From an uncultured Gammaproteobacteria bacterium (GTDB taxonomy: Bacteria; Patescibacteriota; Microgenomatia; JALYQM01): a stretch of 64,000 nt of DNA. The first letter of the stretch is position 1. Every line of letters starts with the position of its first letter. The notes under the pieces were generated by a model. That model was not told the DNA's origin, searched no databases, and saw nothing but the letters and a program-made list of their open reading frames with translations. Position numbers and translations under genes: made by a program. The stretch spans positions 1,472,826-1,536,825 of the forward strand of contig CAYOFQ010000001.1 in NCBI GenBank assembly GCA_964403585.1, given 5' to 3'. Positions 4,824 to 52,741 of the stretch are shown here, in pieces.

Positions 4824-6122
4824 ATGGAAATACCCCGTATTCTTATCGTTGGTGGCGGCTTTGCCGGAATATTCTGTGCTAAAAAGCTCTACCAATTATG
4901 CGGGGATGCAGTACAAATTACCCTTGTTTCCAATAAACCCCATTTCGAATACCACGCTGCACTCTATCGGGTCGTCAACGAAGGCACTCCCCTTCAGGCG
5001 TGTATTCCATTACGGGATATTTTCAAAGACATGAATATAGAAGTTATTGTCGACACCATCGAGTCCGTCGACACTAAGGCTAATATCGCTTACAACACCA
5101 ACCGCGAAAGATACCGCTACGATCACATCGTACTCGCCCTCGGCAGCGAAAATGCCTACTTTGGAATCCCCGGAGTAAGTAAGTACTCCTATTCCATGCG
5201 CACTATTCCGGAAGCACTCAAACTGGCCAGGCATATTCATGAAACTCTAGAGGAACACAAAAATGACGATAATAGCAACCACTTAATGGAAATAGCTGTT
5301 ATTGGCGGCGGGCCTGCCGGAGTAGAACTTGCCGGTGAACTCGCTGTGCATACAAGAGAAGTTGTCGCCAAACACCACTTAAAAGATTCGGCCGTTCAAA
5401 TTGAACTTATAGAGGCAATGGATCAGATTATGCCGATGCTTTCTCCCCAGGAAACCCAACACATAACTGCTCGGCTTGAAGCATTGGGAGTAAAAGTTTT
5501 GACTAAAACCAAAGTTCAGGAAGGAATCGAAACCGGACTCAAAACAGATACCGGTATCATAAAAACCAAAACCGTCATTTGGACTGCCGGGGCTAAAGCA
5601 CACTGCAAATATACCGACTGGGGCTTTGTCACCGGCAAAGGCGGAAAAGTTGAAGTTAATAACTTCTTGCAAGCACAAATTACTGAACCCCAGGTTCCCG
5701 GACACGAAGCACTTGAAGGTAAACCGGTTGAGAACACCAATAAAAAATATCATTCCAACGTATTTATTGTCGGAGACGGCGCTAATGTTAAAGCCTCCGG
5801 ACAAGCGCTGCCTGCTAAAATCATGGGCGAAACAGCCGCCCGCAATATTTGCAACAGCCTCAATAAACAGTCACTCCAAAATTATGAGGCTCCCTTACCA
5901 CTGTTAATTCTTCCTGTAGGTCACCGTTGGGCCTTTGCCAAAATTGGCGCCTGGAAACTTTCGGGAATACTTGGGGCAATAGTATATAAATTGTGGAATC
6001 TCTACTTTTTTAGCGTCTTACTTTCGTTTTCAAAGGCACTGGGCATGTCCCGCCGCGAACATCAAACCTGCGATATCTGTGAGACCTGCATGCATCACCA
6101 TACACAACAATTAACCTACTAA
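4824..6122 (+). CDS. ndh: type II NADH:quinone oxidoreductase (NDH-2)
   Basis: Two dinucleotide-binding motifs (ILIVGGGFAG and IAVIGGGPAGVELAGE). C-terminal hydrophobic tail. Confidence 0.75.
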   Translation: MEIPRILIVGGGFAGIFCAKKLYQLCGDAVQITLVSNKPHFEYHAALYRVVNEGTPLQACIPLRDIFKDMNIEVIVDTIESVDTKANIAYNTNRERYRYDHIVLALGSENAYFGIPGVSKYSYSMRTIPEALKLARHIHETLEEHKNDDNSNHLMEIAVIGGGPAGVELAGELAVHTREVVAKHHLKDSAVQIELIEAMDQIMPMLSPQETQHITARLEALGVKVLTKTKVQEGIETGLKTDTGIIKTKTVIWTAGAKAHCKYTDWGFVTGKGGKVEVNNFLQAQITEPQVPGHEALEGKPVENTNKKYHSNVFIVGDGANVKASGQALPAKIMGETAARNICNSLNKQSLQNYEAPLPLLILPVGHRWAFAKIGAWKLSGILGAIVYKLWNLYFFSVLLSFSKALGMSRREHQTCDICETCMHHHTQQLTY

Positions 6123-9100
6123 ACAACGAAAGAAGCCAAGCGTTCTTTTTTATCCTGAACAAACGCATCAATTTCGCCCTTTAAGTTGATTGAATCCCAA
6201 AGACTAACCCGCGTTCCAAAGCGTTCATGTACCGAATAAATAGATTTCAACAGCTGAACACAATGCATTAATTCAGACAATGTTTCACAACGATCTAAAT
6301 AAGGCAAATACTCTTTAGTGCGTATATCCCAATATCTGGTATTTGCTGCGAAGAAAACAAAAAGCGGATCAGAAAAAAGTTTATCAATAGAATCGTTACG
6401 CTCATGACTTTGTTTTATATACTCACTCGGCAATAGCGAAGGAGGTCTGATATGAGACGCATAATCTTGATAAGTATCGGTAAATATATCCATTATGAAG
6501 GCTACCGTTCGATAATGACGATAGAGATTTATAACACCTTCAGGTGTAAGTACTTTTCCTTCAAGCTTAGCGGCATATTCAGTATTACGTTGCCTAATAA
6601 CCTCCAGAAGTTTCTTGTGTAAAGAATAGGGCCATTCACGACATGCCGACATATCATGGGTGTCCCGACGTACATCTCGTATTCCAATTTCAATATGAGA
6701 ATTATAGAAAAGATTTAAGCTATTCATCATAGTTAGAAAGGCTTCCTCAGTGAGTTCATCATCCAACCACTTCTCTACATTGCGCTGCAGATATTTACCA
6801 TAATCCCCTTGTTCCCAACAATCAATTACCTCATCAAAATAGTACTTCAAAGATTGATAACCTTTCTGTTCACGCAATGTCTTTAATGCTTCAAGTACAT
6901 TCTTTCTCGGACCATCAGGATGAGAAATCCATTCAAAAAATTCGGCAATACTCATTAATTCACGTCGCGCATATTTTTCATTAAGATCTATCAGAATATG
7001 CTCACTAACAAAGTCATGCATATGCCCCTGCTCACTATTTCGGGAAACCAATAAACCTTCTCGCATATCAATAAACCCGACAGTTCTTTCCAAACGAAGC
7101 CAATCAGCCTGCTGCTTATTTGACGCAACGATCATCACACCCTTAAACATTTTCATCCGCTCATCAACAAACGAAACTAATCCTCTTAAGTTACGCAAGG
7201 ATAAACTGTTCTCAAATTCATCAATAATCACAACTACCGGTTCATCAATACTTAAATGCACGGCATAATTAAGTACCGATCGTTCATAGCCAGACGGCTT
7301 ATACCCTTTTTTAAACCACTCCCGATTAATTCCTTCCAATAGGTTATTGTCCGAAAAGTAAGTTAAAATATCTTCTTCCAATTCCTCATCTTCAACCTGG
7401 CCGGTAACCCAAGTTCGTATTCTATCTGGACTATATGATTTGTGCGTTAATGTGTGGGTATATTTCAGCATCACCGTCCCAACTAACGTTCGCAAGTCAC
7501 CATTCATCTCATCAGTCAAGCAAAAAAACCTTCGCTTCCGTTCAGCCGCACTCATTGAGCGCAAGTCAGTTCCATTCCACCTGATTTGGGTATCTTCAAG
7601 TCGACCAACGTGAACACCACTGAGTGTATTTATAAGAGTACTCTTTCCATCTCCGTTTTCACCAATTAACAAGGCGATCTCCCCTGCATTAAGCGTTAAA
7701 GGATGCCCCGCATCCAGGATCGCCACAGTATCAATAGGTGCTTTTTTGCGACGATCAATATGCGGTAATCCAATTGACTGCATTTGCAAGCTAAATTCAG
7801 GTTGATTCCAATCAACCTCCAAACCTTTATACGGTTCAAGTAATGTATCGGTTAACGGACCACGGGCACCTTTAATCGATTCCAGGATACCTCGCAATCG
7901 GTCAAAGGCAGTCTCACGCTGAGCTAATGAAGATCGGAATTGTACATACGAGTCATTAATAAACAAAAACTGCTGCACAGCACGGCTCAATGCCAAAGCC
8001 GGACCTGCTGCCGAATCACCGATTCCAGCCAAAAAAGTAGCGGCCGACAATGAAGAAGGGAATAAATCACCTACTGCCGAGGCAACGTAATTTTTATGCA
8101 TGGCAATTTGTTGCCGATTATTTTGAAGAGTATCATCACCCTCAGTTAAGCCAACCTCATACTCTACTCGTGCTAATCTTTCTTTATTTTGCACCGCATC
8201 ATCAATCTTTTTAGCCACTTCACCAAATCTCTGGGAATACTCATCAAGTAAACTCACCCGCAAACGCCGGCCAAGGAATAACGATGGTATACCAATAATT
8301 CCTGAATAGAGTCCACTCCACAATAAACTTGCATTTCCGTCTTTTACAAATCCGGCAGTTCCAATACCCAAAGACAACCCCAACCAGGTAGAAAACGCAC
8401 TCACCCGAGCTGAACGGTACAAATACTCATTCGCATCAGCAACTAATATTTGGTTAACCAGAACATCCGCGACTAAATCAGGATCATAAGGCGATAATGT
8501 TCTCCGAATATCTGAAGCTAAATACCCGCTAACACCTCGCATCCGGTTCACAATATCAAAAGTCATTGCACTCAAAGCTTTATCCAATTGTCCAACCGGA
8601 ATTCGAGCCACAATAAACGCTGCAGTTGTCGGACCCGAAACAGTCGCAGCACCTTCCATCGAGGATAACAACAATGAAGTCAAACCGGTTCGAACAGGCG
8701 CATCGATCATGTCCCCGGCGATAGTATCAAAACGGTTACCCCAATATGCAGTAAATTCGGGACTTACCCGCTCATATTCCTTAAGAATACCTTTCTTAAA
8801 AAGAGCATCTGATAACCAATCGCGAACAATAGTTTTCTGATCAGTTTCCCGCAAATCACCACCACGCTCTTCAAACCAAACTTCCCATGGCAGTAAACCA
8901 ACGTGGACCCCTGTTTTTCTAATCATGGTCAGAACTTTAAGCGAAGCCTCAGTAATATTCTGGGCAGCATCATCAACTTTCTCTGCGACCGTAAAAACCC
9001 GGCGTACAAACCGATCTATAGCCCGACTTTCCTTTGCCTCTTGGAGCTCAATCTGGTAAGATCGTCTATCGGCAGCAAAGTCGCGCCCTTCCTGCCGAAA

Positions 9101-9160
9101 AATGCTTTCTAATTTAGAACTACCAGTCACGGTTTGAGATGCTAAATATTCGGGTATCAT
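6119..9160 (-). CDS. 1013-aa protein: hydrophobic N-terminal region + ABC-type ATPase domain + ~300-aa C-terminal domain of unknown function
   Basis: Walker A LLIGENGDGKST. Signature-like SGYER. Walker B VVVIIDEFENSLS. Several hydrophobic segments in residues 150-300. Monocistronic, flanked by a convergent and a divergent gene. Confidence 0.6.
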   Translation of the reverse strand: MIPEYLASQTVTGSSKLESIFRQEGRDFAADRRSYQIELQEAKESRAIDRFVRRVFTVAEKVDDAAQNITEASLKVLTMIRKTGVHVGLLPWEVWFEERGGDLRETDQKTIVRDWLSDALFKKGILKEYERVSPEFTAYWGNRFDTIAGDMIDAPVRTGLTSLLLSSMEGAATVSGPTTAAFIVARIPVGQLDKALSAMTFDIVNRMRGVSGYLASDIRRTLSPYDPDLVADVLVNQILVADANEYLYRSARVSAFSTWLGLSLGIGTAGFVKDGNASLLWSGLYSGIIGIPSLFLGRRLRVSLLDEYSQRFGEVAKKIDDAVQNKERLARVEYEVGLTEGDDTLQNNRQQIAMHKNYVASAVGDLFPSSLSAATFLAGIGDSAAGPALALSRAVQQFLFINDSYVQFRSSLAQRETAFDRLRGILESIKGARGPLTDTLLEPYKGLEVDWNQPEFSLQMQSIGLPHIDRRKKAPIDTVAILDAGHPLTLNAGEIALLIGENGDGKSTLINTLSGVHVGRLEDTQIRWNGTDLRSMSAAERKRRFFCLTDEMNGDLRTLVGTVMLKYTHTLTHKSYSPDRIRTWVTGQVEDEELEEDILTYFSDNNLLEGINREWFKKGYKPSGYERSVLNYAVHLSIDEPVVVIIDEFENSLSLRNLRGLVSFVDERMKMFKGVMIVASNKQQADWLRLERTVGFIDMREGLLVSRNSEQGHMHDFVSEHILIDLNEKYARRELMSIAEFFEWISHPDGPRKNVLEALKTLREQKGYQSLKYYFDEVIDCWEQGDYGKYLQRNVEKWLDDELTEEAFLTMMNSLNLFYNSHIEIGIRDVRRDTHDMSACREWPYSLHKKLLEVIRQRNTEYAAKLEGKVLTPEGVINLYRHYRTVAFIMDIFTDTYQDYASHIRPPSLLPSEYIKQSHERNDSIDKLFSDPLFVFFAANTRYWDIRTKEYLPYLDRCETLSELMHCVQLLKSIYSVHERFGTRVSLWDSINLKGEIDAFVQDKKERLASFVV

Positions 9161-9230
9161 AAATTAATTGCATAACTATATCATACTATAGGTCATTTTA
9201 CAATTATGCATTTTGAGGTAATATCACCCT

Positions 9231-10250
9231 ATGAAAACAATCACCAAAGAAATTTCCCAAAACAAAAAAGTTATTATTCGCTTAGATCTGGATATTCCGG
9301 CCGACGAATCAGGTAACCTTACCGATTTAACCCGACTCGAATGCGCTATTCCAACATTACAGCTACTTAATGACAGCGCCCAGCAGGTTGTAATCATTGG
9401 CCACCGGGGAAGACCAAAGGGGGCTGATCAATCTCTTTCCTTAAAACCCGTTGCAGCTGAACTTAAAAAACTATTTGGCCAGCCGATACAATTTATCGAA
9501 TCGATGGATTTTGCTAACGTCTCGGCACAAATTTCTTCCCGTTTTGTCATGCTGGAAAATATCCGCTTTGATGCCCGTGGTAACAGCAACGACGAATCCT
9601 TATCCAAAGAACTCGCTGCTTTAGGAGAACTATTTATTTTTGAAGCATTCTCCGTGGCACATCGTGCTGATTCTTCAACAGTTGGAATTACAAAGTATCT
9701 TCCTTCCTATGCAGGGCTTCGGGTAACTGAAGAAGTGGAACAGCTCGGCGCAGTACTTAAAAACCCTGAGCATCCGTTTCTGGTAATTCTTGGCGGCGCC
9801 AAAATCGAGACCAAGCTTCCAATGATTCAAAACATGGAACCTATTGCCGACAACATTTTTGTAGGAGGAAAGCTCCCGTACGAAATTAATCAGCAAGGAC
9901 TAAGCTTCAGTAACAAAGTTACGGTAGCAACAATGAACGAATCCGGTTTCGATATCAACCAGACAGCAACGGCACAGGCAGTCGAACTGATCAACAAGGC
10001 TTCACTCATCGTGTGGAACGGTCCTGTCGGAAAATTCGAAGATGAAACGGCTCGTGAAGGAACAAGAATTATTGCCCAAGCAGTCGCGCAATCAAAGGCA
10101 AAAGTAGTAACCGGAGGTGGCGACACAATTGCCGCAATGGAAATGTTCGGGATCAAAGATCAAATTGATTTTATTTCCGTAGGCGGTGGCGCAATGCTCG
10201 AATATTTATCCGGAAAACACCTTCCGGCACTTATTGCATTGGAATCATAA
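9231..10250 (+). CDS. pgk: phosphoglycerate kinase (compact 339-aa form)
   Basis: N-terminal ...KKVIIRLDLDIP..., ...IIGHRGRPKG..., C-terminal ...GGGDT... and GGGAMLEY. Confidence 0.85.
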   Translation: MKTITKEISQNKKVIIRLDLDIPADESGNLTDLTRLECAIPTLQLLNDSAQQVVIIGHRGRPKGADQSLSLKPVAAELKKLFGQPIQFIESMDFANVSAQISSRFVMLENIRFDARGNSNDESLSKELAALGELFIFEAFSVAHRADSSTVGITKYLPSYAGLRVTEEVEQLGAVLKNPEHPFLVILGGAKIETKLPMIQNMEPIADNIFVGGKLPYEINQQGLSFSNKVTVATMNESGFDINQTATAQAVELINKASLIVWNGPVGKFEDETAREGTRIIAQAVAQSKAKVVTGGGDTIAAMEMFGIKDQIDFISVGGGAMLEYLSGKHLPALIALES

Positions 10251-12044: not shown

Positions 12045-12881
12045 CTACTTCTCCAATGAATGAGCATATTTACGTAGCGAGACACCTGCAGCTAATATAT
12101 ATCCTGCAAACACCAGATAATCATAATTTGTACCACCGGTACTTGGTAACGTTAAGCCACCCTTAGGTACAGAAGAGCCGAGAACTTGACCCGAGGGGGT
12201 AGAACCACCATTGTTTCCACCACCACCATTCGGTGTTTCAGTTGGTGTTGGAGTCGCACTTGGAGCAGGAGTTGGCGTGCTTGTTGGTGCCGGCGTAGCG
12301 GTAGTAGTTGGAGTAGGTGTCGGATTTCCACCTCCCTGACCCGGAGTTGCACTTGGAGTAACTACCGGAGTAGGTGTCGGTGTTGAACTGGGAGCTTCAC
12401 TGGGAGTTGCGCTCGGAGTAGCCGTTGCACACTCATCTTTAGTATGCACAGCAGCTATTAAACGACTACCGTAACGTGCACCACCGGAAAAACTCTGTAA
12501 TACATCACCTTTAAAGAGGTCAACCTGACCCCAACAAGGAAGGTTAATAGTTAAATCCTTTTTGGAATGGGCATCAAGCGAGTAGATCACAGAATCAAAA
12601 AGAATCTGGTTATCAGTGTTATCATCTACTTTCTTATAACTTGCCAATCCGCCGGAAATGGGCGCATCACCAATGTTCTCAACAGTCGCTTTTGCTTGCG
12701 TACCATTAATAGTAATGAAGCCAATCGCCCCATCATTAACATCCTGGTCCCCTACGGGAACCTCATTTGGATCCAAGCTATACGCCGCGGCGCGGGTTAC
12801 CGAAGCTAGCAAGATCACCACGGCCAAACACATAGCCGCAGTCCACACAGTCCCGACTTTATGAGAAGCTGCCTTTCTCAT
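12045..12881 (-). CDS. LPXTG-anchored cell-surface protein (sortase substrate) with Thr/Pro-rich stalk
   Basis: Starts MRKAASHK with a signal peptide. Has a TPTPT low-complexity linker. C-terminal LPSTG, then a hydrophobic segment, then RKYAHSLEK. Confidence 0.8.
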   Translation of the reverse strand: MRKAASHKVGTVWTAAMCLAVVILLASVTRAAAYSLDPNEVPVGDQDVNDGAIGFITINGTQAKATVENIGDAPISGGLASYKKVDDNTDNQILFDSVIYSLDAHSKKDLTINLPCWGQVDLFKGDVLQSFSGGARYGSRLIAAVHTKDECATATPSATPSEAPSSTPTPTPVVTPSATPGQGGGNPTPTPTTTATPAPTSTPTPAPSATPTPTETPNGGGGNNGGSTPSGQVLGSSVPKGGLTLPSTGGTNYDYLVFAGYILAAGVSLRKYAHSLEK

Positions 12882-12919: not shown

Positions 12920-12960
12920 ATTATAACAAAATCGGAATAGCGTGTCAAAAAACTATAGGA
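12920..12960 (-). promoter_or_regulatory. promoter TTGACA-N17-TATAAT with upstream conserved ATCCTATAG motif
   Basis: On the minus strand: atcctatagtttTTTGACA, 17-nt spacer, TATAAT, then AAAGGAGG and the ATG at 12881. Confidence 0.6.
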
Positions 12961-13039
12961 TAAGAGCCATTTGAAAACGTTTTAATGATATGTTACTATA
13001 ATAAAATTATACAATATTAATAGCATGACAGAGCCTGAG

Positions 13040-18956: not shown

Positions 18957-19775
18957 TTAATTTTCCAGATAACGGGCTGTCTTAACCATTCCAACACCGG
19001 TAAGTAAGGTCATAAACGCATATACCAAAGGCATTACCGAGAAACTACCTGTTGAAGGCAACTCGGTAGCAACACCAAGTACTACTCCACCTTGTGGAAC
19101 AACATTCCCGCTACAATCCCGTACACTGCATCCAAGATTATCTGAAAGACCGCTACTTACACCAGCCACCGAAGCCACTGTTGTAGGTGCAGGTGTTACA
19201 GTCGGAACACTGGTTGGTGCTACGGTAACTACCGGAGTTGCAGTAGGAACAACAGTCGGTACCGGCGTTGCAGTAACAACAGGCGTTGCTGTTGGGGCAA
19301 CAGTCACTACCGGAGTAGCTGTCGGAGCAACCGTGGGTGTAGCAGTAGGGGCTACAGTAGCTGTCGCTGTCGGATTAGGGGAAGCTACCGTACCACAAGG
19401 ACCATGGGAAAGATTAAACTCTCCTCCCCATCCATTATATATAGAGGTAGTCGCAGATGTTACAGTCGAAGTAAGATGAGCCGTAGTGGTGTAGTGAGCG
19501 GTTTTACCGGTATATTTGTCTATACCAACCGACTGACTTCCTCCATTTGCCCATGAAACCTGAATCTGAGCAGGTGCATTAGATTGTGAGTCTATTTGAG
19601 TAATTACAAAATGCCATTCTGAAGAATCACAACTATGGCTGGTAAGAGCCTTAGCGGAAATTGAACTTGCAGCGCTTACACTAGCCACCATCGGGACCGA
19701 AACAGTCACCATCAGGGCAATAAGAGCCACACGCATAGATTGTACAAAAGAACGCTGAGAAGCTGCCTTTCTCAT
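18957..19775 (-). CDS. LPXTG-anchored cell-surface protein, paralog of 12045..12881
   Basis: Starts MRKAASQR with a signal peptide. PTATPVVTV repeats. C-terminal LPSTG + TM + KTARYLEN. Confidence 0.8.
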   Translation of the reverse strand: MRKAASQRSFVQSMRVALIALMVTVSVPMVASVSAASSISAKALTSHSCDSSEWHFVITQIDSQSNAPAQIQVSWANGGSQSVGIDKYTGKTAHYTTTAHLTSTVTSATTSIYNGWGGEFNLSHGPCGTVASPNPTATATVAPTATPTVAPTATPVVTVAPTATPVVTATPVPTVVPTATPVVTVAPTSVPTVTPAPTTVASVAGVSSGLSDNLGCSVRDCSGNVVPQGGVVLGVATELPSTGSFSVMPLVYAFMTLLTGVGMVKTARYLEN

Positions 19776-19806: not shown

Positions 19807-19846
19807 ATAATAGCACAAATAAGCTTTTTTGTCAATACTATAGGAT
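19807..19846 (-). promoter_or_regulatory. promoter TTGACA-N17-TATTAT fused to conserved palindromic motif ATCCTATAGTAT
   Basis: Minus strand: ATCCTATAGTA TTGACA aaaaagcttatttgtgc TATTAT ... AAGGAGG ... ATG at 19775. Confidence 0.65.
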
Positions 19847-44113: not shown

Positions 44114-45627
44114 AAAGCATTTTCGATGGGAAGTCGCACGATAAATGTAGTTCCTTTTCCCTCAGTACTCTCTACTGAAATTGTACCATTATGACGCTTC
44201 ACAATTTCTGCGGAAATATATAGACCCAAACCCAACCCCGGATAACTCTCCCGCGCTACGCCATCCACCCGGTAAAATCGCTCAAAAACCCGCTTGATCC
44301 GGTCTTCCGGGATACCGATACCAAAATCCTGAATCCGCAGTTCCACCATTCCCTCCACTACTAAGCTGGAAACAATGACCCGTTTTGAATGAGGAGAATA
44401 TTTCGCCGCATTAGTTAATAAGTTGGTAATAACCTGCCCTATCCGATACGTATCTAGTAAAATAGGAATCGACGCATTTCCTTTTTTTATTATTTCATAA
44501 TCCGGCACCGAAGCGCTAACACTCTCTATTGTGGATTGCACCAGCTCATCAAAAATAACCGTTTCTACAGCAAGCTCAAGCCGACCTGATTCAATACGGG
44601 ACACATCAAGAAGTAAGTCCACTAGACGCGTAATCCGGTCCAGTTGTTCAGCAATTTTTACGGTATAACTAATCCCCCGGGCATCTTTCTTACGAATTAA
44701 ATAGCGTTCCAGTAGCTGGGAAAAAGCCCGCAAACTGGTTAATGGGGTTCGCAATTCATGACTGGCCACGCTGACAAATTCATCTTTACGTTTATCAAGT
44801 AAGATTCGTTCGGTAACATCACGTTGTGTACCCCACGCCCTTTTTAGAAAACCCTCTTCGATAATTCCCACCAGATTATTCTCAAAATACACGTCTTTAC
44901 CATGCGGCGTAACCTCATGACTCACAGCAGCAGACAAACGATATCCTGACTCTATAAATGCGCGAAGATACGCTACATTACGGGGGTCATCCCGCACTAA
45001 TAAATCAGAAATTCGTGCCCCTTTAAGTTCTTCGGCATTCCCCAAACCATACATTCGGGCAAAGGCGTCATTGCATTCGGCAAGATACACATCCCGGTAA
45101 ATTCGATCAAGTTGATCATCAACCGGCAAAGTAATATCCATCGGCTCCGCAGCTTCTACACACCAGATTCCCTCGGTACTATTGGCAATAAACGCACGAT
45201 ACCGTTGTTCACTCTTTCGCAATTCCTGTACAATCTCAACATTTCGCTGATACGTTGCCTCAGCAGCTTCGGCCAGTTTTTTCTGCTTGGTAACATCTCT
45301 GAAATATACGGCCAAACCATCCTTATAAGGATACAAGTGTAATTCAACCCAACGGTTCAGCGCATACGAATACTCAGTAAAGCTAACAGCTTTTCTTGTT
45401 TTTGCTGCCTTTAAATATTGTTTATATATTGGAGTTCCAACGGTTTGCGGATATACATCCCAAATTACTTTACCGAGCAGTTCATCAGAGGAGATATTTA
45501 AGAGTTTTTCCGCAGCGGCATTAACGTACACATACCGCCATGAAGAGTCTAAAGCAATAAAGGCTTCAGAAATATTTTCGAGTACTTCAACAGCATGCAG
45601 AGGTAAATTCCTCGCTGACTGTTTCAT
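44110..45627 (-). CDS. PAS-domain sensor histidine kinase (no adjacent response regulator)
   Basis: H-box HELRTPLTSL. HATPase_c motifs NLLTNAAKYS and GLGLGLYIS. Two PAS-like regions. Confidence 0.8.
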   Translation of the reverse strand: MKQSARNLPLHAVEVLENISEAFIALDSSWRYVYVNAAAEKLLNISSDELLGKVIWDVYPQTVGTPIYKQYLKAAKTRKAVSFTEYSYALNRWVELHLYPYKDGLAVYFRDVTKQKKLAEAAEATYQRNVEIVQELRKSEQRYRAFIANSTEGIWCVEAAEPMDITLPVDDQLDRIYRDVYLAECNDAFARMYGLGNAEELKGARISDLLVRDDPRNVAYLRAFIESGYRLSAAVSHEVTPHGKDVYFENNLVGIIEEGFLKRAWGTQRDVTERILLDKRKDEFVSVASHELRTPLTSLRAFSQLLERYLIRKKDARGISYTVKIAEQLDRITRLVDLLLDVSRIESGRLELAVETVIFDELVQSTIESVSASVPDYEIIKKGNASIPILLDTYRIGQVITNLLTNAAKYSPHSKRVIVSSLVVEGMVELRIQDFGIGIPEDRIKRVFERFYRVDGVARESYPGLGLGLYISAEIVKRHNGTISVESTEGKGTTFIVRLPIENAL

Positions 45628-45915
45628 AACTCTATTGTACTACCACAAATAGCAAGAAGAAATATAAAGATTTTTATAACTAAAGAAGTAAATTACATGG
45701 GGACAGATAGCAACAGAGTGTTAGGTTTTCAAAAAGATCAGAAACAAAACGCACAAGGCGCTGCTCTAAGTCCTCTCGACTCCTTCTCACTTGTTACAAG
45801 TTCCACACATGTTCCAATCGAAGGCAGGACCCGACGCGTATTGCGCCAGTGAGCCATCGGGCCCTGCCTTATCAAATCACCAGGTGCGCGCGGTCGGCGG
45901 CGAGGTCAGGATACG

Positions 45916-46671
45916 CTACTTGTCGCGGAGATCGTGGGGATCAATCATGGTGAAAAGCGTAGCTGCCGTGTAGATCAGGCTGCCAAACGTCACAGCGAGG
46001 CTGAGAACTCCAATGTGCATGTTGCGAACAAGCCCAAAGAAGGAATAGCCTTCGCCGTTGACAATGTAGGCGATGCCGACAATCAGCGACAGGAGAGCGA
46101 CACAAACCGTGTAGCGCGCTTGCCGGAGATCCGACAACTTGCACCACCAGTCCTTGAACGACTCCCACATCGCGCCAGCGACAATCCAGCCAACGATGGC
46201 CGTGAAGATCGTACCAATGACGGCACCGACGACGAACGCACCGATGGCGAACCCACCGAGAACAGTGAACAGGGCCAGGAAAAGATTGGGGATCATGGTA
46301 TTCACCAGATCCACCGCAGTCATCGGCCCTTGCACGTCCTTCAGATCCGTGTAGGTGAACGCCATCGTGACGCCGACAACCAGTGACATCAGCACGAACA
46401 GGGCGCCGGCGGCGAACAAAATCAAAGCGGTCTTGAGGGCGGTCTTGGCGGTCGAGTTGGTGGTCGAAGTCTTGGTGTTCATGCTGTTCTCCTTCTTAAT
46501 CATCGGGAAATAACCGGCGACACGAGCAGCCATGCAGATATCACAAAAGCAGTGAAAAAGCGGCGCTTCAGTTGGCGAGTGAACAGAGTACCCTTGGGCG
46601 CGAGCGGCCTTGCAGATATCGCAGCGGCAGAACAACAACGGCGCGGTGGTGGACGAGCTGTGCTTGAACAT
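45916..46671 (-). CDS. GC-rich membrane protein (4 TM) with N-terminal tandem CxCDIC Cys motifs
   Basis: FCRCDICKAARAQGY and FCDICMAARVAGY repeats, followed by MNTKT...4 TM helices. Both ATG 46671 and ATG 46482 have AAGGAG(G) RBSs. Confidence 0.5.
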   Translation of the reverse strand: MFKHSSSTTAPLLFCRCDICKAARAQGYSVHSPTEAPLFHCFCDICMAARVAGYFPMIKKENSMNTKTSTTNSTAKTALKTALILFAAGALFVLMSLVVGVTMAFTYTDLKDVQGPMTAVDLVNTMIPNLFLALFTVLGGFAIGAFVVGAVIGTIFTAIVGWIVAGAMWESFKDWWCKLSDLRQARYTVCVALLSLIVGIAYIVNGEGYSFFGLVRNMHIGVLSLAVTFGSLIYTAATLFTMIDPHDLRDK

Positions 46672-46963
46672 AGGACAGGGCCTCCTTTGTGTAGAACTGG
46701 GACACCAGCTTCAGCCTGAAAGGCTGCCTCGCACAACAATTGTGGGGTTGGAAAATCAGAAGGGTGTACTGCACAAACAGTACCTATCCGGTTCTCCAAT
46801 CCCACAACTGCGGGAGGATAGTGTCAAGTTCAAAGGAAGCAGGAACAAAGTAAAACTTGTCTGTTGCTATCTGTTAAAGAACTGTGAGCTCAGTTTGAAC
46901 TAAGCTCGTGCTCGGAGCCTCGATTGAGCTCAATTGAACTCATCGCTACTCTGAGCAACTAGT

Positions 46964-47004
46964 ATAGTAGCACATTTTAGTCCTTTTGTCAAATACTATA
47001 GGAT
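46964..47004 (-). promoter_or_regulatory. promoter TTGACA-N17-TACTAT with conserved ATCCTATAGTAT motif, driving a ~300-nt leader
   Basis: Minus strand: ATCCTATAGTAT TTGACA aaaggactaaaatgtgc TACTAT. The next minus-strand ORF starts at 46671. Confidence 0.55.
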
Positions 47005-47052
47005 ATTAATTACCTCTTTCCTGAGCTCAAAAAACTCGTATAATGCAGTTAA

Positions 47053-48354
47053 ATGAAATACAAAAAACGCCAGCTTGTCAGCGTCGCTAAAAAAGTGGAT
47101 ACCCAGCAGCATCTTACTCCTGCTGAAATTAATTTTCTTTTGGATTTCCAAAAGGTAGACAAAGATAATACTGCCCTCAGAATTCTTAAACGCATTGCCG
47201 TACCGGCTTCACTCATTTTCGGTTTCTTCTTCAGCGCCTTTCCCGGGTATTTCGACCATCTGGTTAAAACACTCCCCTCGTGGACGAATCTTACTCCTCC
47301 CGTACTAATGGGAGTAGACTGGATTTGGGACATCATCGGTGACCCGGTAGGCAAAGAAAATATTATCTACCACCTCCCCAACATTGTTCTCTACTCGTTT
47401 GGAATTGTTGGTGCCAAAAAACTGATCGATGCGATCGATCACCGAACCTGGCTGGATAAAGTCCTTGCATCACAAACCAAACTGGCCGAACGCATTCAAA
47501 ATGGCCAAACCAACTATCAAATGCTCGACGGCAGTTCCCTGCTCTTTGTTGGGAAAGGAGATTTTATCGGAACACAATTCGTTCTCAACCATACCGAGAA
47601 CGAGACAATAACGGTATCTCAGGTAAAACCCACCTATACCAAATTCTGGAACTTTTACGATGTCGAAACGCTCTACGAGGATTTAAAAAATGTTATTATT
47701 CGCTCCAGCGGGAAAAATGTCGGAGAATACATCTTCTTCCCGGTAAAAGACGACCAGATCTTTCTGCCAAATGAAAAAGCCTACGACCTCTCCCCGCACA
47801 AACTGGATATTCTCTGTCAAAACATCCGTATCATTGAAAAAGAAATGGGCTGGAAAAATAAACGCATTATCGTTATTGGAGATAAATTCCACAAAAGCTT
47901 TGTCCAATCTGAGGATCAACAACGAGTTATTGAGAAAAGTGAGGACATAATTTCTCTGGAATCGATTTCTAAAAAATATACCAACGTCACCCTTCTCGAC
48001 CCGACAGATATTGTCTTGAAAAAAATACTGGAAATCGCGCAAGGGAGAAAAATTGTTTTCCGCGCCACCAAAGAAGGATTACGGGAATATAAAGCCAGGT
48101 TCTATGAACGACTGGAATCACTCGGATACACACCGGAAAATAAAAACCAGGGAGTTCTTACCATTGGCTACGACCTCTTCGAAGACCAAACCGAACAGCA
48201 AACACTCTCCCGCAAAATTGATGACTATTATCCCGTTGTACTCTCTAAAAATGTGCACGACGCACTTATACGAAACGGGTACAAAAAGGAAGAATTCCTC
48301 TATGTACCCGACCTCGTTTTAGATACCTTAACGCATGCTGCCGCGCAGCAATAA
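47053..48354 (+). CDS. hypothetical membrane-anchored protein (433 aa)
   Basis: One TM segment near residue 50. TATAAT at 47039 lies 8 nt before the ATG (leaderless-like). Confidence 0.45.
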   Translation: MKYKKRQLVSVAKKVDTQQHLTPAEINFLLDFQKVDKDNTALRILKRIAVPASLIFGFFFSAFPGYFDHLVKTLPSWTNLTPPVLMGVDWIWDIIGDPVGKENIIYHLPNIVLYSFGIVGAKKLIDAIDHRTWLDKVLASQTKLAERIQNGQTNYQMLDGSSLLFVGKGDFIGTQFVLNHTENETITVSQVKPTYTKFWNFYDVETLYEDLKNVIIRSSGKNVGEYIFFPVKDDQIFLPNEKAYDLSPHKLDILCQNIRIIEKEMGWKNKRIIVIGDKFHKSFVQSEDQQRVIEKSEDIISLESISKKYTNVTLLDPTDIVLKKILEIAQGRKIVFRATKEGLREYKARFYERLESLGYTPENKNQGVLTIGYDLFEDQTEQQTLSRKIDDYYPVVLSKNVHDALIRNGYKKEEFLYVPDLVLDTLTHAAAQQ

Positions 48355-48356
48355 AT

Positions 48357-48944: not shown

Positions 48945-49011
48945 ATGCCAGAATTTTACACCACTGCAGAACACTTAGCCATACCTATCCATTTGTGATA
49001 CTATTAATTAC

Positions 49012-49719: not shown

Positions 49720-49891
49720 TTTACGGAGAGACAATAGCACACCAAATACAAAAACAGTCAAAAACAGCAGTGGTAAACCACCGGGCTTCATTCTGTTGTT
49801 ATACATGCTGATTGTCACGTTTCACCTCCTTCCAGGTAGAGCGCACGATGCGCGTGCAGAGCGTACGCTCCACCTGAAATAGAGATTGTCA

Positions 49892-50518
49892 CTAGCCACG
49901 GCTTCGGCGACGATTGATCCAGCCGACAATATGCAGCGCGAACGCCAAGATCACAAGGTAGCTAGCGATGCGCGCCATGCGCACCATCCAGATGAATTCC
50001 ATTACACCGGCTGTATTGGTGAAGGTAGCCGCTCGACGCTCGAACAAAACTTCAATCGCCTGAATAACGATACGGTGCCAATTGTGGCTCATTCGCGACC
50101 ACCGCCAGAAGGCGTCGACCGGGTCAGTAGCACCCCACGGATTCCCCATCGAGGGGTCAGCCGTCACAAGAACGACAAACGCCATCAGGTACAGCGCCAA
50201 CAGCACCAAAAAAACTGAAATCAGAACAACCCACCAGCGATACGGCAGCTTCATCGCAAACCGGTACGACTCTCGCACCAGCTCAAATAAAGCTAACCCA
50301 CCGGCAGTGGTAAGCACCGCCAAGACCCAGCTTCCGCTGAACCACAGGCTTGCCACGAACAGCGCTGCGAAGTAGATCCCCCAGATGATCGAATGTGGAT
50401 GCAACCGACGCGGACTTGGTGAACCAGCGGATTGGGTAGTCACAAGACCCTCCTTACATTTGTCCTGCCTTTTCAGGTTTGCGGTACATCCGCACAGCAA
50501 GGACTGCCAGAAAAGCAA
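49892..50518 (-). CDS. GC-rich integral membrane protein, unknown function
   Basis: 4 hydrophobic helices. A likelier start is GTG ~50440, preceded by AAGGAGG. Confidence 0.45.
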   Translation of the reverse strand: MLFWQSLLCGCTANLKRQDKCKEGLVTTQSAGSPSPRRLHPHSIIWGIYFAALFVASLWFSGSWVLAVLTTAGGLALFELVRESYRFAMKLPYRWWVVLISVFLVLLALYLMAFVVLVTADPSMGNPWGATDPVDAFWRWSRMSHNWHRIVIQAIEVLFERRAATFTNTAGVMEFIWMVRMARIASYLVILAFALHIVGWINRRRSRG

Positions 50519-50666
50519 ACAATTCTTTATTCACTTTTCAGACAGTCATTGCTACAGAACAAAGGAGATAAAACGTGTCTATTGTCTCTCTTTTAAAGAA
50601 CAAAAGCTCAATTAATAAAAATTGAGCACAGAGTAAGTATATCACATTTAAGCTCAAAAATAAATA

Positions 50667-51287
50667 CTATGGGATTATTAGACGTTCTTCACCTACAACA
50701 CAAACGGCATCGCCGTCGACAATAACTTCTTCACCATTCTTGAGAAGATACAACTTTTTGCCTTTGAAATTTTGCTGCACTACATCAAGCATCTGCTCAT
50801 CATAATGCGGAAAAATATCAAAGTCAACCAGGTTAAGCCACGGAATATACTGCGCTCCAAACTCATTTTCGCCAGGGTACCACACACTCATATCCGCAGA
50901 GGAACCCACTATCATTGCTCCGGCACTCGAACCGACATACACACTACCTTCATCCAACAGTTTCCTTAAATAAGCATCTATCTTCCGGCGTCGTATCCAG
51001 TACATCAAATATCCACACTGCCCGCCCCCAAACCAGATAATATCCTTCCCGGATAATTTCTCCATAGCTTCTTCTTCTGTGGCATGCTCTAATTCCAGTA
51101 ACGTTACCTGAGCACCCAAGGTAGGCAGTAATTTCCAGCTACCCCCTTCTTTCCATGACTCCCACCCTTCACCATTTGCAGCCGTGGGAATATAAACGAG
51201 AGATTTTGCTTCAAACCCGCCGACTAATTTTTTAAGTTCACTAATAGAATCGTGATGTTTTGCTTCCGAAGCAAGAAATAATTTCAT
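50667..51287 (-). CDS. peptidase S51 (dipeptidase E-like)
   Basis: VYVGSSAGAM nucleophile-elbow and S51 layout. Confidence 0.65.
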   Translation of the reverse strand: MKLFLASEAKHHDSISELKKLVGGFEAKSLVYIPTAANGEGWESWKEGGSWKLLPTLGAQVTLLELEHATEEEAMEKLSGKDIIWFGGGQCGYLMYWIRRRKIDAYLRKLLDEGSVYVGSSAGAMIVGSSADMSVWYPGENEFGAQYIPWLNLVDFDIFPHYDEQMLDVVQQNFKGKKLYLLKNGEEVIVDGDAVCVVGEERLIIP

Positions 51288-51547
51288 GACCCAAGTATAT
51301 CAGGTTTTTTAGGGGTAAAAACGAGAAGAGCCGGTAAGAGGGTTTTTGTGTGTACGTAATAAGCGTGATTGATGCTTCATTGCACCAGCCGCACTGTTCA
51401 GTACCCCTCCTACCGGCCTTCTCTCTGCCGATAAACGCTCACAACGCCGTACCCTAAGGCACGCGCAGCACCAATGCCTTAAGGCATGGCGTTGTGAGAA
51501 AGACAAGTCGAGGTCGAGGTCAGCGAGCCGCCGGCGCCGATCAGGTT

Positions 51548-52369
51548 CTAGGGGTGCCGATAATCGAGATTGATATACTGCCCGCAGCGCTCGTAGTCGT
51601 TAGTGAACACAAACACATCGGGCACACCGTCCTGTCGCCAACTCGCGTCAGCGTTGTTCAGCGTATCCCGCAGCCGAACCAGGTAACCCCAGTCGCCATT
51701 GGCAGCCGGCCGGTAGATGCTGTTGCACTGCTCGTCATAAGTCCAGAACATGAGCTGCATGTTGCTCAGGCCATCGACGACGAGAGGGTGGGTCTCACCA
51801 CTTACTTCCGGCACCGGCAGGAACACAGCTGAGTCGCCGCTCGTGTAGAAGCCGACCAGGTGGCCGGGCTGCACGGTCGAGCCGGCGGCCAGGTCATACC
51901 CCGTGTCCGTCCAGTCGCGCTGAACCCAGGTGATGATCTCGACAGCCGGTGCCGGCGTTGCGGTCATGACCGGGGCCTCGGTGGCCTCGGGTGTGGGCGT
52001 GGGCAGGTTGCCGACCGTCTCGTTGAACGCCAGTTCACGCGTGAGATCCATGGCGGCCATCGCCTTCGAGTAGGAATTGTCCAGCGCGCGGTCAGCCAGC
52101 GAGATCAGCCCAGTGATCAGATTGTACGAGAGGATGCCGACAACGATCAGCGTCAGAAAGTACGCCATGAACGCAAGAGCTGTACGACCTTCGCGGTTCG
52201 CGAGCTGCCTTCGCAACTCAGCGTTCTCCTCCAGCAGCTGGTCAAAACTGTCCGACAGCGAGCGGTGGTCGTCACGGAGCGTTGCACGGCTGCGAAGCAA
52301 CCGGCGATTATCCCGTTTCAGCTTGCGTACCCGTGACTGGAGTTGTTCGTACGTCCATTCGCGAACCAT
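51548..52369 (-). CDS. GC-rich membrane-anchored protein with N-terminal coiled-coil and extracytoplasmic domain
   Basis: One TM (ALAFMAYFLTLIVVGIL). GGAGG RBS. Confidence 0.5.
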   Translation of the reverse strand: MVREWTYEQLQSRVRKLKRDNRRLLRSRATLRDDHRSLSDSFDQLLEENAELRRQLANREGRTALAFMAYFLTLIVVGILSYNLITGLISLADRALDNSYSKAMAAMDLTRELAFNETVGNLPTPTPEATEAPVMTATPAPAVEIITWVQRDWTDTGYDLAAGSTVQPGHLVGFYTSGDSAVFLPVPEVSGETHPLVVDGLSNMQLMFWTYDEQCNSIYRPAANGDWGYLVRLRDTLNNADASWRQDGVPDVFVFTNDYERCGQYINLDYRHP

Positions 52370-52691
52370 GAGAATGCCTCCATATAGTGGTGAATCCGGT
52401 TCGGTGGTGTTTAACCTGCATTTTTGGCAACATTGCTGTCACCTCTAAACCACCTTTCATCAATTGCAGGCAAGCTGAGCTCAAGCATTTAAGCCCAATT
52501 TGCCTGCTGAAAGGTGGAAAATATTGTCTTTCTCACATTGTGAGAGAATTAGCAGAGAGAAATTGACCACGCCAAAGGATAATATCGTACTTAATTGAGG
52601 TAAAATCACCCCATTAAGGAGAGATAAAATAGCCTTTGCCTGACCAATAGCCTCTCTACTATGAATGTCAAAGTGCCAAACTAACCAGGGA

Positions 52692-52731
52692 AGTATACCA
52701 AAATTTAACCTAAAAGTCAATACTATAGGTT
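52692..52731 (-). promoter_or_regulatory. promoter TTGACT-N17-TATACT with conserved CCTATAGTAT motif, driving a ~310-nt leader
   Basis: Minus strand: AACCTATAGTAT TGACTT tttaggttaaattttgg TATACT. The downstream ORF starts at 52369. Confidence 0.55.
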
Positions 52732-52741
52732 ATAAATGAAA

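What the first reader, a model, noticed from the sequence alone, without database searches (positions are those of the whole stretch)
19807..19846. Recurrent palindromic motif ATCCTATAGTAT fused to the -35 box defines a small regulon
The near-palindrome ATaCTATAGgAT occurs at least five times on the same strand. Positions are 12950, 19835, 46993, 52721 and a variant at 50659, with a weaker copy at 9184. Each abuts a minus-strand TTGACA-N17-TAnnAT promoter (D at 50659 and the weaker copy at 9184 lack a clear -35). A random 12-mer of this composition is expected well under once in 64 kb. Downstream genes are the two MRKAAS...LPSTG surface proteins and three GC-rich membrane-protein genes (45916..46671, 49892..50518, 51548..52369). 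The position directly upstream of -35 suggests a class I activator or an UP-like site for a dimeric regulator.
Basis: seen in the sequence. Interest (0 to 1): 0.6.

Follow-up and report, generated by a model that had tools for sequence, protein, structure and literature searches.

The report
Conserved promoter box heading inserted gene cassettes
The repeated 12-mer is real: it is a short, one-directional DNA box sitting just upstream of very strong promoters in a group of uncultivated ultra-small bacteria, and in this genome three of its five copies head foreign, GC-rich gene cassettes whose leaders resemble those of ribosomal RNA operons.

Summary
Observation confirmed. ATCCTATAGTAT occurs 5 times at no more than 1 mismatch (0.31 expected), all on the minus strand, plus a weak sixth copy. 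Each lies 2-4 nt 5' of a -35 hexamer, N17, and a TGn-extended -10 (four consensus-like TTGACA/T, one degenerate TTTATT).

Interpretation partly supported. It is a promoter-upstream site, but not a palindromic operator private to five genes. The conserved core is the asymmetric, oriented CCYATAGT. The same box-plus-promoter occurs in at least 120 metagenome contigs. It also occurs in 7 of 7 Gottesmanbacteria-type DEAD-box helicase promoters chosen without regard to the motif, and before infA. I read it as an UP-like or activator box of a conserved strong-promoter class in Microgenomates-type Patescibacteria; the binding factor is unknown.

The larger result concerns the three GC-rich genes. They are ORFans with foreign codon usage (GC3 0.75-0.77 for islands 1 and 3, against about 0.40 for neighbours). 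They sit in cassettes that are absent from a syntenic relative (L003). Each cassette starts at or within a few bases of the box. Each then carries a leader hairpin, an exact or near boxA (GYTCTTTAANA), and a 12-29 bp long-range stem enclosing the cargo, with compensatory changes between copies. This is the layout of an rRNA operon leader applied to protein genes. Function is inferred, not shown.

The parts
19807..19846 (-). Box ATCCTATAGTAT (19835-19846) + -35 TTGACA (19830-19835) + N17 with TGc + -10 TATTAT (19807-19812); promoter of LPSTG protein gene 18957-19775
12920..12961 (-). Box ATCCTATAGTTT (12950-12961) + -35 TTGACA (12943-12948) + -10 TATAAT (12920-12925); promoter of LPSTG protein gene 12045-12881
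46964..47004 (-). Box ATCCTATAGTAT (46993-47004) + TTGACA (46987-46992) + TACTAT (46964-46969); first element of cassette 1
   Evidence: junction with the empty site
50636..50675 (-). Box ATCCCATAGTAT (50664-50675; ATC CCA TAG are also the last codons and stop of the S51 peptidase gene) + degenerate -35 TTTATT + -10 TATACT; first element of cassette 2
52692..52731 (-). Box AACCTATAGTAT (52720-52731) + TTGACT (52715-52720) + TATACT (52692-52697); first element of cassette 3, 10 nt after the Zn-peptidase stop
   Evidence: junction
9183..9194 (-). Weak copy GACCTATAGTAT between the divergent ABC-ATPase (6119-9160) and PGK (9231-10250) genes; only a poor -35 (aTGAtA) follows
12045..12881 (-). Sortase-substrate surface protein (signal peptide MRKAAS..., T/P-rich linker, LPSTG + TM anchor), 278 aa
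18957..19775 (-). Second LPSTG surface protein, 272 aa; only a distant paralogue of the first
45680..47004 (-). Cassette 1 (right end approximate): promoter, hairpin 46886-46907, boxA GTTCTTTAACA 46872-46882, stem 5' strands 46860-46874 and 46850-46859, cargo ORF 45916-46671 (251 aa, multi-TM, GC3 0.75), GC hairpin 45823-45868, stem 3' strands 45797-45806 and 45703-45717
49722..50675 (-). Cassette 2 (left end may lie up to ~27 nt further upstream, inside the altered S51 C-terminus): promoter, hairpin 50606-50627, boxA GTTCTTTAAAA 50591-50601, stem 5' strands 50579-50590 and 50561-50577, cargo ORF 49892-50443 (GTG start, 183 aa, multi-TM), GC hairpin 49833-49876, stem 3' strands 49816-49832 and 49726-49737
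51309..52731 (-). Cassette 3: promoter, degenerate boxA-like ATTCTCTCACAA 52538-52549, stem 5' arm 52524-52537, cargo ORF 51548-52369 (273 aa: coiled coil, one TM, C-terminal domain; GC3 0.77), stem 3' arm 51493-51506, 24-nt-arm hairpin 51438-51498

Best explanation
The motif is the upstream module of a conserved class of very strong sigma-70-type promoters: CCYATAGT, then 0-5 nt, then TTGACA-N17(TGn)-TATAAT. This class is used by a clade of Patescibacteria (Microgenomates type: Gottesmanbacteria and relatives). Most likely it is bound by a lineage-conserved protein that raises RNA polymerase recruitment. That protein would be either the polymerase itself through a flexible contact such as the alpha C-terminal domain, or a dedicated activator centred near -41.

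In this window the box heads two sortase-anchored surface-protein genes and three horizontally inserted expression cassettes. Each cassette is box promoter, then leader hairpin, then boxA, then the 5' strand of a long-range stem, then a GC-rich ORFan membrane-protein gene, then the 3' strand of the stem. By analogy with rRNA operons, boxA would load the Nus factors. That would protect transcription of the foreign gene from premature (Rho-type) termination and keep the 5' strand near the polymerase until the 3' strand is made. The resulting duplex would then clamp the mRNA ends or be processed by RNase III.

Shown here: the non-random motif, its position and orientation, its conservation in orthologous promoters, the insertion of the cassettes, boxA enrichment, and complementarity with compensatory changes. 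Inferred: binding factor, activation, antitermination and processing.
For: Motif statistics. Promoter geometry.

Spread beyond this genome:
The same pattern and two scrambled-core controls each gave only 1-2 hits in the viral collection.
- In sequence not selected by the pattern, CC[CT]ATAG is followed by TTGAC within 9 nt in 10 of 79 cases. Control heptamers give 0-1.4%; the one-mismatch variant CCTATAA gives 3.7%.
- No such case occurs in 1.26 Mb of other genomes.
- 7 of 7 helicase orthologues picked blind to the motif carry CCTATAG 4-5 nt 5' of TTGAC, and the sequence 5' of the box is not conserved.
- Downstream genes are heterogeneous: 21 helicases, 3 with an IF-1 domain match, and many proteins with no Pfam match.

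Cassettes:
- Only three GC-rich islands exist in the window, and all are behind box promoters.
- GC3 is 0.75-0.77 for the island 1 and island 3 ORFs, against 0.37-0.41 for five of six neighbouring genes (0.47 for the sixth).
- The island 3 protein is an ORFan in two searches and the island 1 protein in one.
- The syntenic locus L003 lacks all three, and the junctions lie at the box.
- The only two exact boxA matches in the window are both in island leaders.
- 9 boxA lie within 250 nt of 111 box promoters against 0.17 expected.
- The hairpin-then-boxA order matches rrn leaders (PMC6614797). The boxA consensus is taken from PMC5725501.
- Perfect 15-, 12- and 14-nt flanking complements, plus second helices of 10 and 17 bp with sense-strand G-U pairs and compensatory changes between cassettes 1 and 2.
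Against: - There is no transcription-start or expression data, so the promoters are consensus predictions only.
- The core promoters are already near consensus, so an activator is not obviously needed.
- Box-to-(-35) spacing varies by up to 5 nt, which is awkward for a fixed protein-protein contact.
- The box is rare in the Gottesmanbacteria loci, about one per 20 kb and only at the helicase gene. It is absent from the closest syntenic relative over 20 kb. It therefore behaves more like a regulon site than a general promoter feature.
- I could not inspect any rRNA operon of these organisms, so the 'rrn-like' reading rests on E. coli knowledge.
- Long-range stems are not universal: most helicase loci, L117 and the two LPSTG genes lack them. 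In a broad search, 12-mers alone are at control level.
- Cassettes 1 and 2 are paralogous, so their shared features are not independent observations.
Confidence: 0.6

Rival explanations
1. Operator of a specific transcription factor: a sequence-specific regulator binds the near-palindrome and switches a defined regulon on or off. The regulon would include envelope proteins, the DEAD-box helicase and IF-1. It could be a repressor that blocks the upstream edge of the promoter, or a cold- or growth-responsive activator.
For: - The box is present at few promoters per genome and is strongly conserved at one orthologous gene.
- CTATAG is a palindromic core.
- The box centre near -41 is a class II activator position.
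- From background knowledge, the helicase deaD and infA are both cold-shock genes in E. coli.
Against: - The conserved core is asymmetric and strictly oriented.
- CCCATAG variants destroy the palindrome.
- Spacing to -35 varies from 0 to 5 nt.
- The core promoters are consensus, unlike typical activator-dependent promoters.
- No candidate regulator gene is linked to the sites. One HxlR-type helix-turn-helix match was found among the 44 other window ORFs but was not located or followed up.
Confidence: 0.25
2. Terminus or recombination site of a mobile element. Here the box is what a recombinase or transposase recognises at the left end of promoter-bearing cassettes, and its promoter association is secondary.
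For: In cassettes 1 and 3, homology with the empty site in L003 stops at the box or within a few bases of it; cassette 2 is bounded only to within about 27 nt. There is no spare flank. The element is a near-palindrome. The scaffolds of cassettes 1 and 2 are homologous while their cargo is unrelated.
Against: - No matching sequence, inverted copy or target duplication occurs at the right ends.
- No recombinase is present in or beside the cassettes.
- The same box sits at the core helicase promoter in 7 of 7 species, where conservation likewise begins at the box. That is what a promoter boundary in a streamlined genome would give.
- Five independent assemblies of this strain are identical, with no inversion or excision variants.
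Confidence: 0.08
3. No function of its own: the copies are similar because the promoters are recent duplicates of one another (paralogous promoters), or because CTATAG is a restriction-modification or methylation site that is avoided elsewhere.
For: - Cassettes 1 and 2 have homologous leaders.
- The two LPSTG genes are distant paralogues.
- CTATAG is a 6-bp palindrome that is rare in the window: 9 loci, of which 5 are box sites.
Against: - Outside the box and the two hexamers, the five promoters share little sequence.
- The box is conserved across species whose helicases are only 63-75% identical, while the flanks are not.
- Site avoidance would not place the remaining copies 2-4 nt from -35 in one orientation.
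Confidence: 0.04

Closest known systems
UP element of strong bacterial promoters (E. coli rrnB P1 type; bound by the RNA polymerase alpha C-terminal domain)
   Same: Lies directly 5' of the -35 hexamer of the strongest sigma-70-type promoters. It is orientation-dependent and tolerates small changes in spacing. In the cassettes it occurs together with boxA leaders, as in rrn operons.
   Different: Not an A/T tract: the conserved core is CCYATAGT, with C and G positions. It is only about 8-10 bp, covering the proximal subsite region. It is seen at few promoters per genome. Binding by alpha is untested.
Class II activator sites (CRP/FNR family, centred at -41.5)
   Same: The centre of the 12-mer is about -41. 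It abuts or overlaps the -35 hexamer. It has a partial dyad.
   Different: It is 12 bp rather than 22 bp. The dyad is not conserved. Spacing is variable. The core promoters are consensus rather than -35-deficient.
rRNA operon leader: boxB hairpin, boxA, then the RNase III processing stem that encloses 16S rRNA (Nus-factor antitermination/chaperone complex; PMC6614797, PMC5725501)
   Same: Cassette leaders have a hairpin, then 3-4 nt later an exact GYTCTTTAANA, then at once the 5' strand of a helix whose 3' strand lies about 0.8-1.1 kb downstream. The helices are 12-29 bp and show compensatory changes.
   Different: The enclosed cargo is a protein-coding ORFan gene with foreign codon usage, not rRNA. 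No alternating-GU boxC is evident. Cassette 3 has only an 8-of-11 boxA-like match. Nus binding and RNase III cleavage are untested.
boxA in front of non-rRNA targets (suhB, a toxin-antitoxin gene in Citrobacter; PMC5725501)
   Same: An exact boxA consensus in the 5' UTR of protein-coding genes.
   Different: There boxA lies within 50 nt of the start codon and represses. Here it is 150-200 nt upstream and is paired with a long-range stem.
Morons, reused or mobile promoters, and integron gene cassettes (promoter reuse: PMC3575422)
   Same: Small units inserted between resident genes, carrying a single gene of unrelated function. There is a conserved scaffold with variable cargo.
   Different: Each unit brings its own promoter, unlike integron cassettes. 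The inverted repeats flank the gene rather than forming a 3' attC. No integrase, phage context or array was found.

Membership tests
UP element (alpha-CTD site) | A/T-rich sequence between about -40 and -60 | tested here: not met
   The conserved core CCYATAGT contains invariant C and G. Flanks are A/T-rich in the window copies only.
UP element (alpha-CTD site) | Immediately upstream of -35 of strong promoters, orientation-dependent | tested here: met
   Lies 0-5 nt 5' of TTGAC. It is present on 4 of about 6 of the best promoter matches in the window. The inverse orientation is not associated with TTGAC.
UP element (alpha-CTD site) | Bound by the alpha C-terminal domain and stimulates transcription without other factors | not testable with these tools
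   Needs in vitro transcription or footprinting with the cognate polymerase.
Class II CRP/FNR-type activator site | Conserved inverted repeat bound by a homodimer | tested here: not met
   Only one half is conserved. The C/T variant breaks the dyad, and the bases 5' of CC vary.
Class II CRP/FNR-type activator site | Fixed position near -41.5 | tested here: inconclusive
   The centre is about -41 in most copies, but spacing ranges from 0 to 5 nt.
rrn-type Nus antitermination leader | boxA matching GYTCTTTAANA in the transcribed leader | tested here: met
   Exact matches at 46872-46882 and 50591-50601 are the only two in the window. Across loci, 9 were found against 0.17 expected downstream of box promoters. 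Cassette 3 has only a degenerate match.
rrn-type Nus antitermination leader | Hairpin (boxB) 5' of boxA, the rrn order | tested here: met
   Hairpins at 46886-46907 and 50606-50627 end 3-4 nt before boxA.
rrn-type Nus antitermination leader | Long-range helix flanking the product, substrate of RNase III | tested here: inconclusive
   Complementarity and compensatory changes are shown. Cleavage is not testable here.
rrn-type Nus antitermination leader | NusB/NusE binding and read-through of terminators | not testable with these tools
   Requires biochemistry or transcriptomics.
Integron gene cassette | Promoterless ORF followed by an attC hairpin, next to an integrase/attI platform | tested here: not met
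   The cassettes carry their own promoter, the repeats flank the ORF, and no integrase was found in the window.
Invertible (phase-variable) segment | Both orientations present in populations | tested here: not met
   Five independent contigs covering cassette 3, from five sequencing runs, are 100% identical and collinear with the window.
Known RNA families (Rfam 15) | Match at the gathering score | tested here: not met
   There was no hit in the window and nothing credible at E up to 5 in 45500-52800.

The most novel reading that the evidence does not exclude
Microgenomates-type Patescibacteria possess a previously undescribed modular 'expression cassette' for newly acquired genes. The module is a portable unit made of a lineage-specific promoter box, a consensus promoter, an rrn-style boxB-boxA antitermination leader and a covarying long-range stem. 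It wraps unrelated foreign ORFan genes, mostly envelope proteins, so that they are transcribed and processed the way ribosomal RNA is. The CCYATAGT box would then be the recognition element of a dedicated high-output transcription mode shared with ribosome-biogenesis genes (DEAD-box helicase, IF-1).
Probability: 0.3. Interest if true: 0.8.

Novelty: new variant of a known kind. Interest (0 to 1): 0.62.

Why it matters
Almost nothing is known about transcription signals in Patescibacteria, which make up a large share of bacterial diversity and have only recently become genetically tractable.

A short box that is conserved at orthologous promoters gives three things: a concrete cis-element for building expression tools, a handle for identifying the factor that reads it, and a marker for highly expressed or co-regulated genes in metagenome-assembled genomes.

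The cassettes suggest how a streamlined, low-GC genome gets GC-rich foreign genes expressed. It would reuse rRNA-operon logic, namely boxA antitermination plus an end-to-end stem. That bears on horizontal gene transfer, on Rho-mediated silencing of foreign DNA, and on the origin of the envelope proteins these organisms may use to attach to hosts.

Tried and rejected
- **Known RNA or tRNA genes under the GC-rich islands.** There was no Rfam hit at gathering score or at a relaxed E-value, and no tRNA. A strong GC3 periodicity shows the islands are protein-coding.
- **Degenerate rRNA remnants.** No similarity to 16S or 23S probes was found in any locus.
- **Invertible segments flanked by inverted repeats.** Five assemblies are identical and collinear.
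- **A T7/SP6-like phage polymerase promoter.** ACTATAGG is the reverse complement of the box core, which I noticed through primer hits. There is no consistent plus-strand downstream gene, only 8 nt of resemblance, and no single-subunit polymerase context.
- **DnaA box.** TTATCCTAT resembles TTATCCACA, but the TTAT part is not conserved outside the window.
- **Phage or defence origin of the cargo.** There were no meaningful PHROG or PADLOC matches; only low-complexity T/P-linker hits for the LPSTG proteins.
- **Homologues of the cargo.** None was found in 5.8 billion clustered proteins or 1.84 billion representatives.
- **RNAduplex on whole leaders and trailers.** Uninformative.
- **A general 5'/3' UTR stem at all box promoters.** Not supported: most loci are at control level.
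- **A boxA-like start in the helicase leaders.** Dropped after the unbiased loci showed only a conserved hairpin there.
- **Naming the organism or extending the window.** Failed.
- **Literature.** I found no description of a promoter motif for Patescibacteria.

Full report
**1. Observation**

The 12-mer ATCCTATAGTAT, read on the minus strand, is exact at 19835-19846 and 46993-47004. One-mismatch copies are at 12950-12961, 50664-50675 and 52720-52731. That is 5 matches at no more than 1 mismatch, against 0.31 expected from dinucleotide shuffles, and no shuffle reached 5. A 2-mismatch copy sits at 9183-9194.

All five CCTATAG heptamers in the 64-kb window, counting both strands, are at these sites. 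None is in coding sequence.

On the minus strand each of the five good copies is followed after 2-4 nt (measured from the G of ATAG) by a -35 hexamer, exactly 17 nt, and a TGn-extended -10. Four of the -35 hexamers are TTGACA or TTGACT; the fifth (50659-50664) is the degenerate TTTATT. Four of roughly six promoter matches in the window that combine TTGAC with an extended -10 carry the box.

The window has 43.6% G+C, no Rfam family at gathering score and no tRNA.

**2. Organism**

The genes flanking the sites are ordinary cellular genes: PGK, Zn-peptidase, S51 peptidase, GAPDH and others. The Zn-peptidase is 56-72% identical to genome bins labelled Patescibacteria, Levyibacteriota, Woesebacteria and Saccharibacteria. 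Exact-protein look-ups find the strain only in five sequencing runs and on an unnamed 1.57-Mb NCBI contig. I therefore treat it as a Microgenomates-type patescibacterium. This is inferred, not proven.

**3. The box is not private to this genome**

In the viral collection the same pattern gave 1 hit and two scrambled-core controls gave 1 and 2. Chance level for such a pattern is therefore low. The two collections differ in size, so I rely on internal evidence instead of the raw counts.
- *Co-occurrence in unselected sequence.* In the 568 kb of those contigs outside the selected hit, CC[CT]ATAG is followed by TTGAC within 9 nt in 10 of 79 cases. Ten of the eleven control heptamers give 0-1.4%. 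The inverse orientation, CTATAGG, gives 1 of 142. The one-mismatch variant CCTATAA gives 3.7%. Of 17 further strict promoters in the same contigs, about half carry a CCYATAG-like sequence at the same place.
- *Other genomes.* In 1.26 Mb from other genomes, including the nearest patescibacterial relatives, there is no such pair.
- *Downstream genes.* Of 88 downstream ORFs, 21 are DEAD-box helicases and 3 match the IF-1 domain. A ribosomal protein S13 match and translations seen suggest one or two more infA operons. The others are single instances of unrelated families, and most have no Pfam match.
- *Blind orthologue test.* The helicase of locus L104 belongs to Candidatus Gottesmanbacteria. All seven have CCTATAG 4-5 nt upstream of TTGAC in the promoter that lies 200-400 nt before the helicase start codon. 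The sequence 5' of the box is unrelated between species. This phylogenetic footprint is independent of my search pattern.

**4. What the box looks like**

Spacing to the -35 hexamer ranges from 0 to 5 nt, with 2 nt the most common and 4-5 nt at helicase genes. The centre is near -41.

These features fit an oriented promoter-upstream element better than the operator of a symmetric dimer. The variable spacing and the already-consensus core promoters favour a flexible contact (UP-like) or a loosely positioned activator over a classical class II activator or a repressor.

The box is nevertheless rare: one per 20-kb locus in the Gottesmanbacteria loci, and always at the helicase gene. The set of box promoters is therefore regulon-sized. 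Which protein reads it cannot be decided here.

**5. The three 'GC-rich membrane protein genes' are inserted cassettes**

- *Composition.* Only three stretches of the window exceed 52% G+C, and each lies directly downstream of a box promoter. The ORFs of islands 1 and 3 have GC3 of 0.75-0.77, against 0.37-0.41 for five of six neighbouring genes (0.47 for the sixth). They are therefore coding and compositionally foreign.
- *No homologues.* The island 3 protein found only itself among 5.8 billion clustered proteins and, with phmmer, among 1.84 billion representatives. The island 1 protein found only itself in the first of these searches.
- *Empty sites in a relative.* Locus L003 (JALYQM010000016.1, 40% G+C) is syntenic with window 43.4-53.6 kb. 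It has the order Zn-peptidase, S51 peptidase, g49012, g48357, g47053, a g44110 fragment and g43394, at 50-77% amino-acid identity. It lacks all three islands. The Zn-peptidase to S51 gap is 30 nt (1454 nt in the window). S51 and g49012 abut. The g47053 to g44110 spacer is about 200 nt (1425 nt in the window).
- *Junctions.* Alignments put the left end of cassettes 1 and 3 at the box or within a few bases of it. In cassette 2 the box overlaps a new stop codon of the S51 gene, whose last nine codons differ from L003. The right ends lie 10-70 nt beyond the 3' arm described below.

**6. Cassette anatomy** (coordinates)

After the promoter comes a terminator-like hairpin (46886-46907; 50606-50627). 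Then, 3-4 nt later, comes an exact match to the boxA consensus GYTCTTTAANA of Baniulyte et al. (PMC5725501), at 46872-46882 and 50591-50601. These are the only two exact matches in the window. Cassette 3 has an 8-of-11 match in the same relative position.

Hairpin-then-boxA is the order found in rRNA leaders (PMC6614797). Across all box promoters, 9 exact boxA lie within 250 nt downstream, where 0.17 are expected (P about 3e-13). That is half of all exact boxA in those contigs. Examples include L117 and L189, which also have GC-rich cargo, L141 (a lipoprotein gene) and the L091 family.

Overlapping or directly following boxA is the 5' strand of a helix whose partner lies beyond the cargo.

| Cassette | Helix 1 (perfect) | Helix 2 |
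|---|---|---|
| 1 | 15 bp: 46860-46874 with 45703-45717 | 10 bp: 46850-46859 with 45797-45806 |
| 2 | 12 bp: 50579-50590 with 49726-49737 | 17 bp: 50561-50577 with 49816-49832 |
| 3 | 14 bp: 52524-52537 with 51493-51506 | none found |

The leaders and trailers of cassettes 1 and 2 are homologous, while their cargo is not. Between the two copies, helix 1 shows two double substitutions (C-G to T-A, T-A to G-C) and one paired insertion. Helix 2 shows one double substitution (A-T to C-G). I read these off the sequences.

Helix 2 contains two U-G wobbles in cassette 1 and three in cassette 2 on the sense strand. These would be A-C mismatches on the other strand, which points to pairing in the transcript.

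Similar end-to-end complements flank the cargo of L189 (12 nt), a small ORF in L162 (15 nt), and the helicase of L104 (20 nt perfect plus a 29-nt helix). They are absent at most other box promoters and at the two LPSTG genes. In a wide search space, 12-mers alone are at control level.

**7. Mechanism**

Established knowledge of rRNA operons (PMC6614797) is as follows. NusB/NusE bind boxA RNA. The Nus complex makes RNA polymerase resistant to Rho-dependent termination. It also keeps the leader looped to the polymerase, so that the distant strands of the processing stem meet and are cut by RNase III.

The cassettes have the same parts in the same order, wrapped around a protein gene. My reading has three steps:
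- The box promoter gives high initiation.
- boxA secures read-through of a C-rich, poorly adapted foreign gene.
- The stem clamps or processes the mRNA ends.

All three steps are inference from sequence.

The fact that the box marks the exact left boundary of the insertions could mean it is a recombination site. However, the same sharp boundary is seen at the core helicase promoter of seven species, and no matching right-end sequence, target duplication or recombinase was found. I therefore think it simply marks the upstream limit of functional DNA in streamlined genomes.

**8. Comparison with known systems and novelty**

The box works like an UP element or a promoter-proximal activator site, but it fails the sequence definition of both. 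I found no description of it in the paper library.

boxA upstream of protein genes is known (PMC5725501), and promoter reuse is known (PMC3575422). I did not find a described case of the full rRNA-leader layout, including the enclosing stem, used as a portable scaffold for unrelated foreign genes.

I rate the finding as a new variant of a known kind. It has a credible, but unproven, path to something more novel.

Noticed in passing
window 45680-47004, 49722-50675, 51309-52731: Three GC-rich (55-64%) ORFan gene cassettes are absent from the syntenic relative L003. Each has a box promoter, a boxA and a long-range stem enclosing the cargo. This became the main extra result.
   Followed up: yes
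window 46523-46579 and 46601-46657 (minus-strand ORF 45916-46671): The N-terminus of the cassette 1 ORF holds a tandem 78-nt-spaced repeat that encodes two C-x-C-D-I-C-x-A-A-R motifs. These come before a second possible start (ATG 46482, good RBS) for the membrane part. This may be a separate small Cys-rich peptide or an upstream ORF.
   Followed up: no
window 50664-50693: The last nine codons of the S51 peptidase gene differ from the L003 orthologue, and the gene now ends at a TAG inside the box. The insertion of cassette 2 therefore appears to have replaced the gene's 3' end. In L003 the S51 gene and the convergent g49012 gene overlap.
   Followed up: partly
L091 1852-3270 (also L108, L152, L188, L191): A box promoter is followed by about 1.2 kb with no convincing ORF, an exact boxA at +208, many hairpins, and then a CRISPR array (37-nt repeat GTTTCAGTCCCCTGACGGGGATTTCTTTTTGTCCGAG). 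This may be a long structured leader or guide-processing RNA of a patescibacterial CRISPR system.
   Followed up: no
L211 9800-10000, L213, L214, L215, L218-L220 (helicase 5' UTRs): The DEAD-box helicase genes of Gottesmanbacteria-type genomes share a conserved 160-390-nt 5' UTR. It has a hairpin AACAGATTTAAA...TTTAAATCTGTT at the start and a second conserved pair, GATAAAGATACCC...GTATCTTTCTCC. The earlier helicase loci sharing the start hairpin gave no Rfam match. It is possibly an autoregulatory or temperature-sensing leader.
   Followed up: no
L104 (minus orientation; helicase gene 5123-6310): This one helicase mRNA has a perfect 20-nt complement and a further 29-nt helix between its 5' UTR and the region 45-73 nt after its stop codon (z about 10). 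Other helicase loci lack this.
   Followed up: partly
window, all six box copies: All copies are on the minus strand, and GC skew is negative in nearly every 300-nt window across 44-54 kb. The box genes may be co-oriented with replication.
   Followed up: no
window 9183-9230: The weak copy lies between divergent genes. Read on the plus strand, ACTATAGG sits 2 nt before a TTTACA-N16-TAATAT match that ends 6 nt before the PGK start codon. If that promoter is used, PGK would be translated from a nearly leaderless mRNA.
   Followed up: no
L189 2207-3245 and L117 7232-8652: Other contigs show the same pattern of a box promoter, an exact boxA, a long leader and GC-rich cargo. In L189 the cargo is 58% G+C in a 42% contig and has a DUF2807 adhesin-head domain. 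In L117 it is a 337-aa ORF with no Pfam match.
   Followed up: partly
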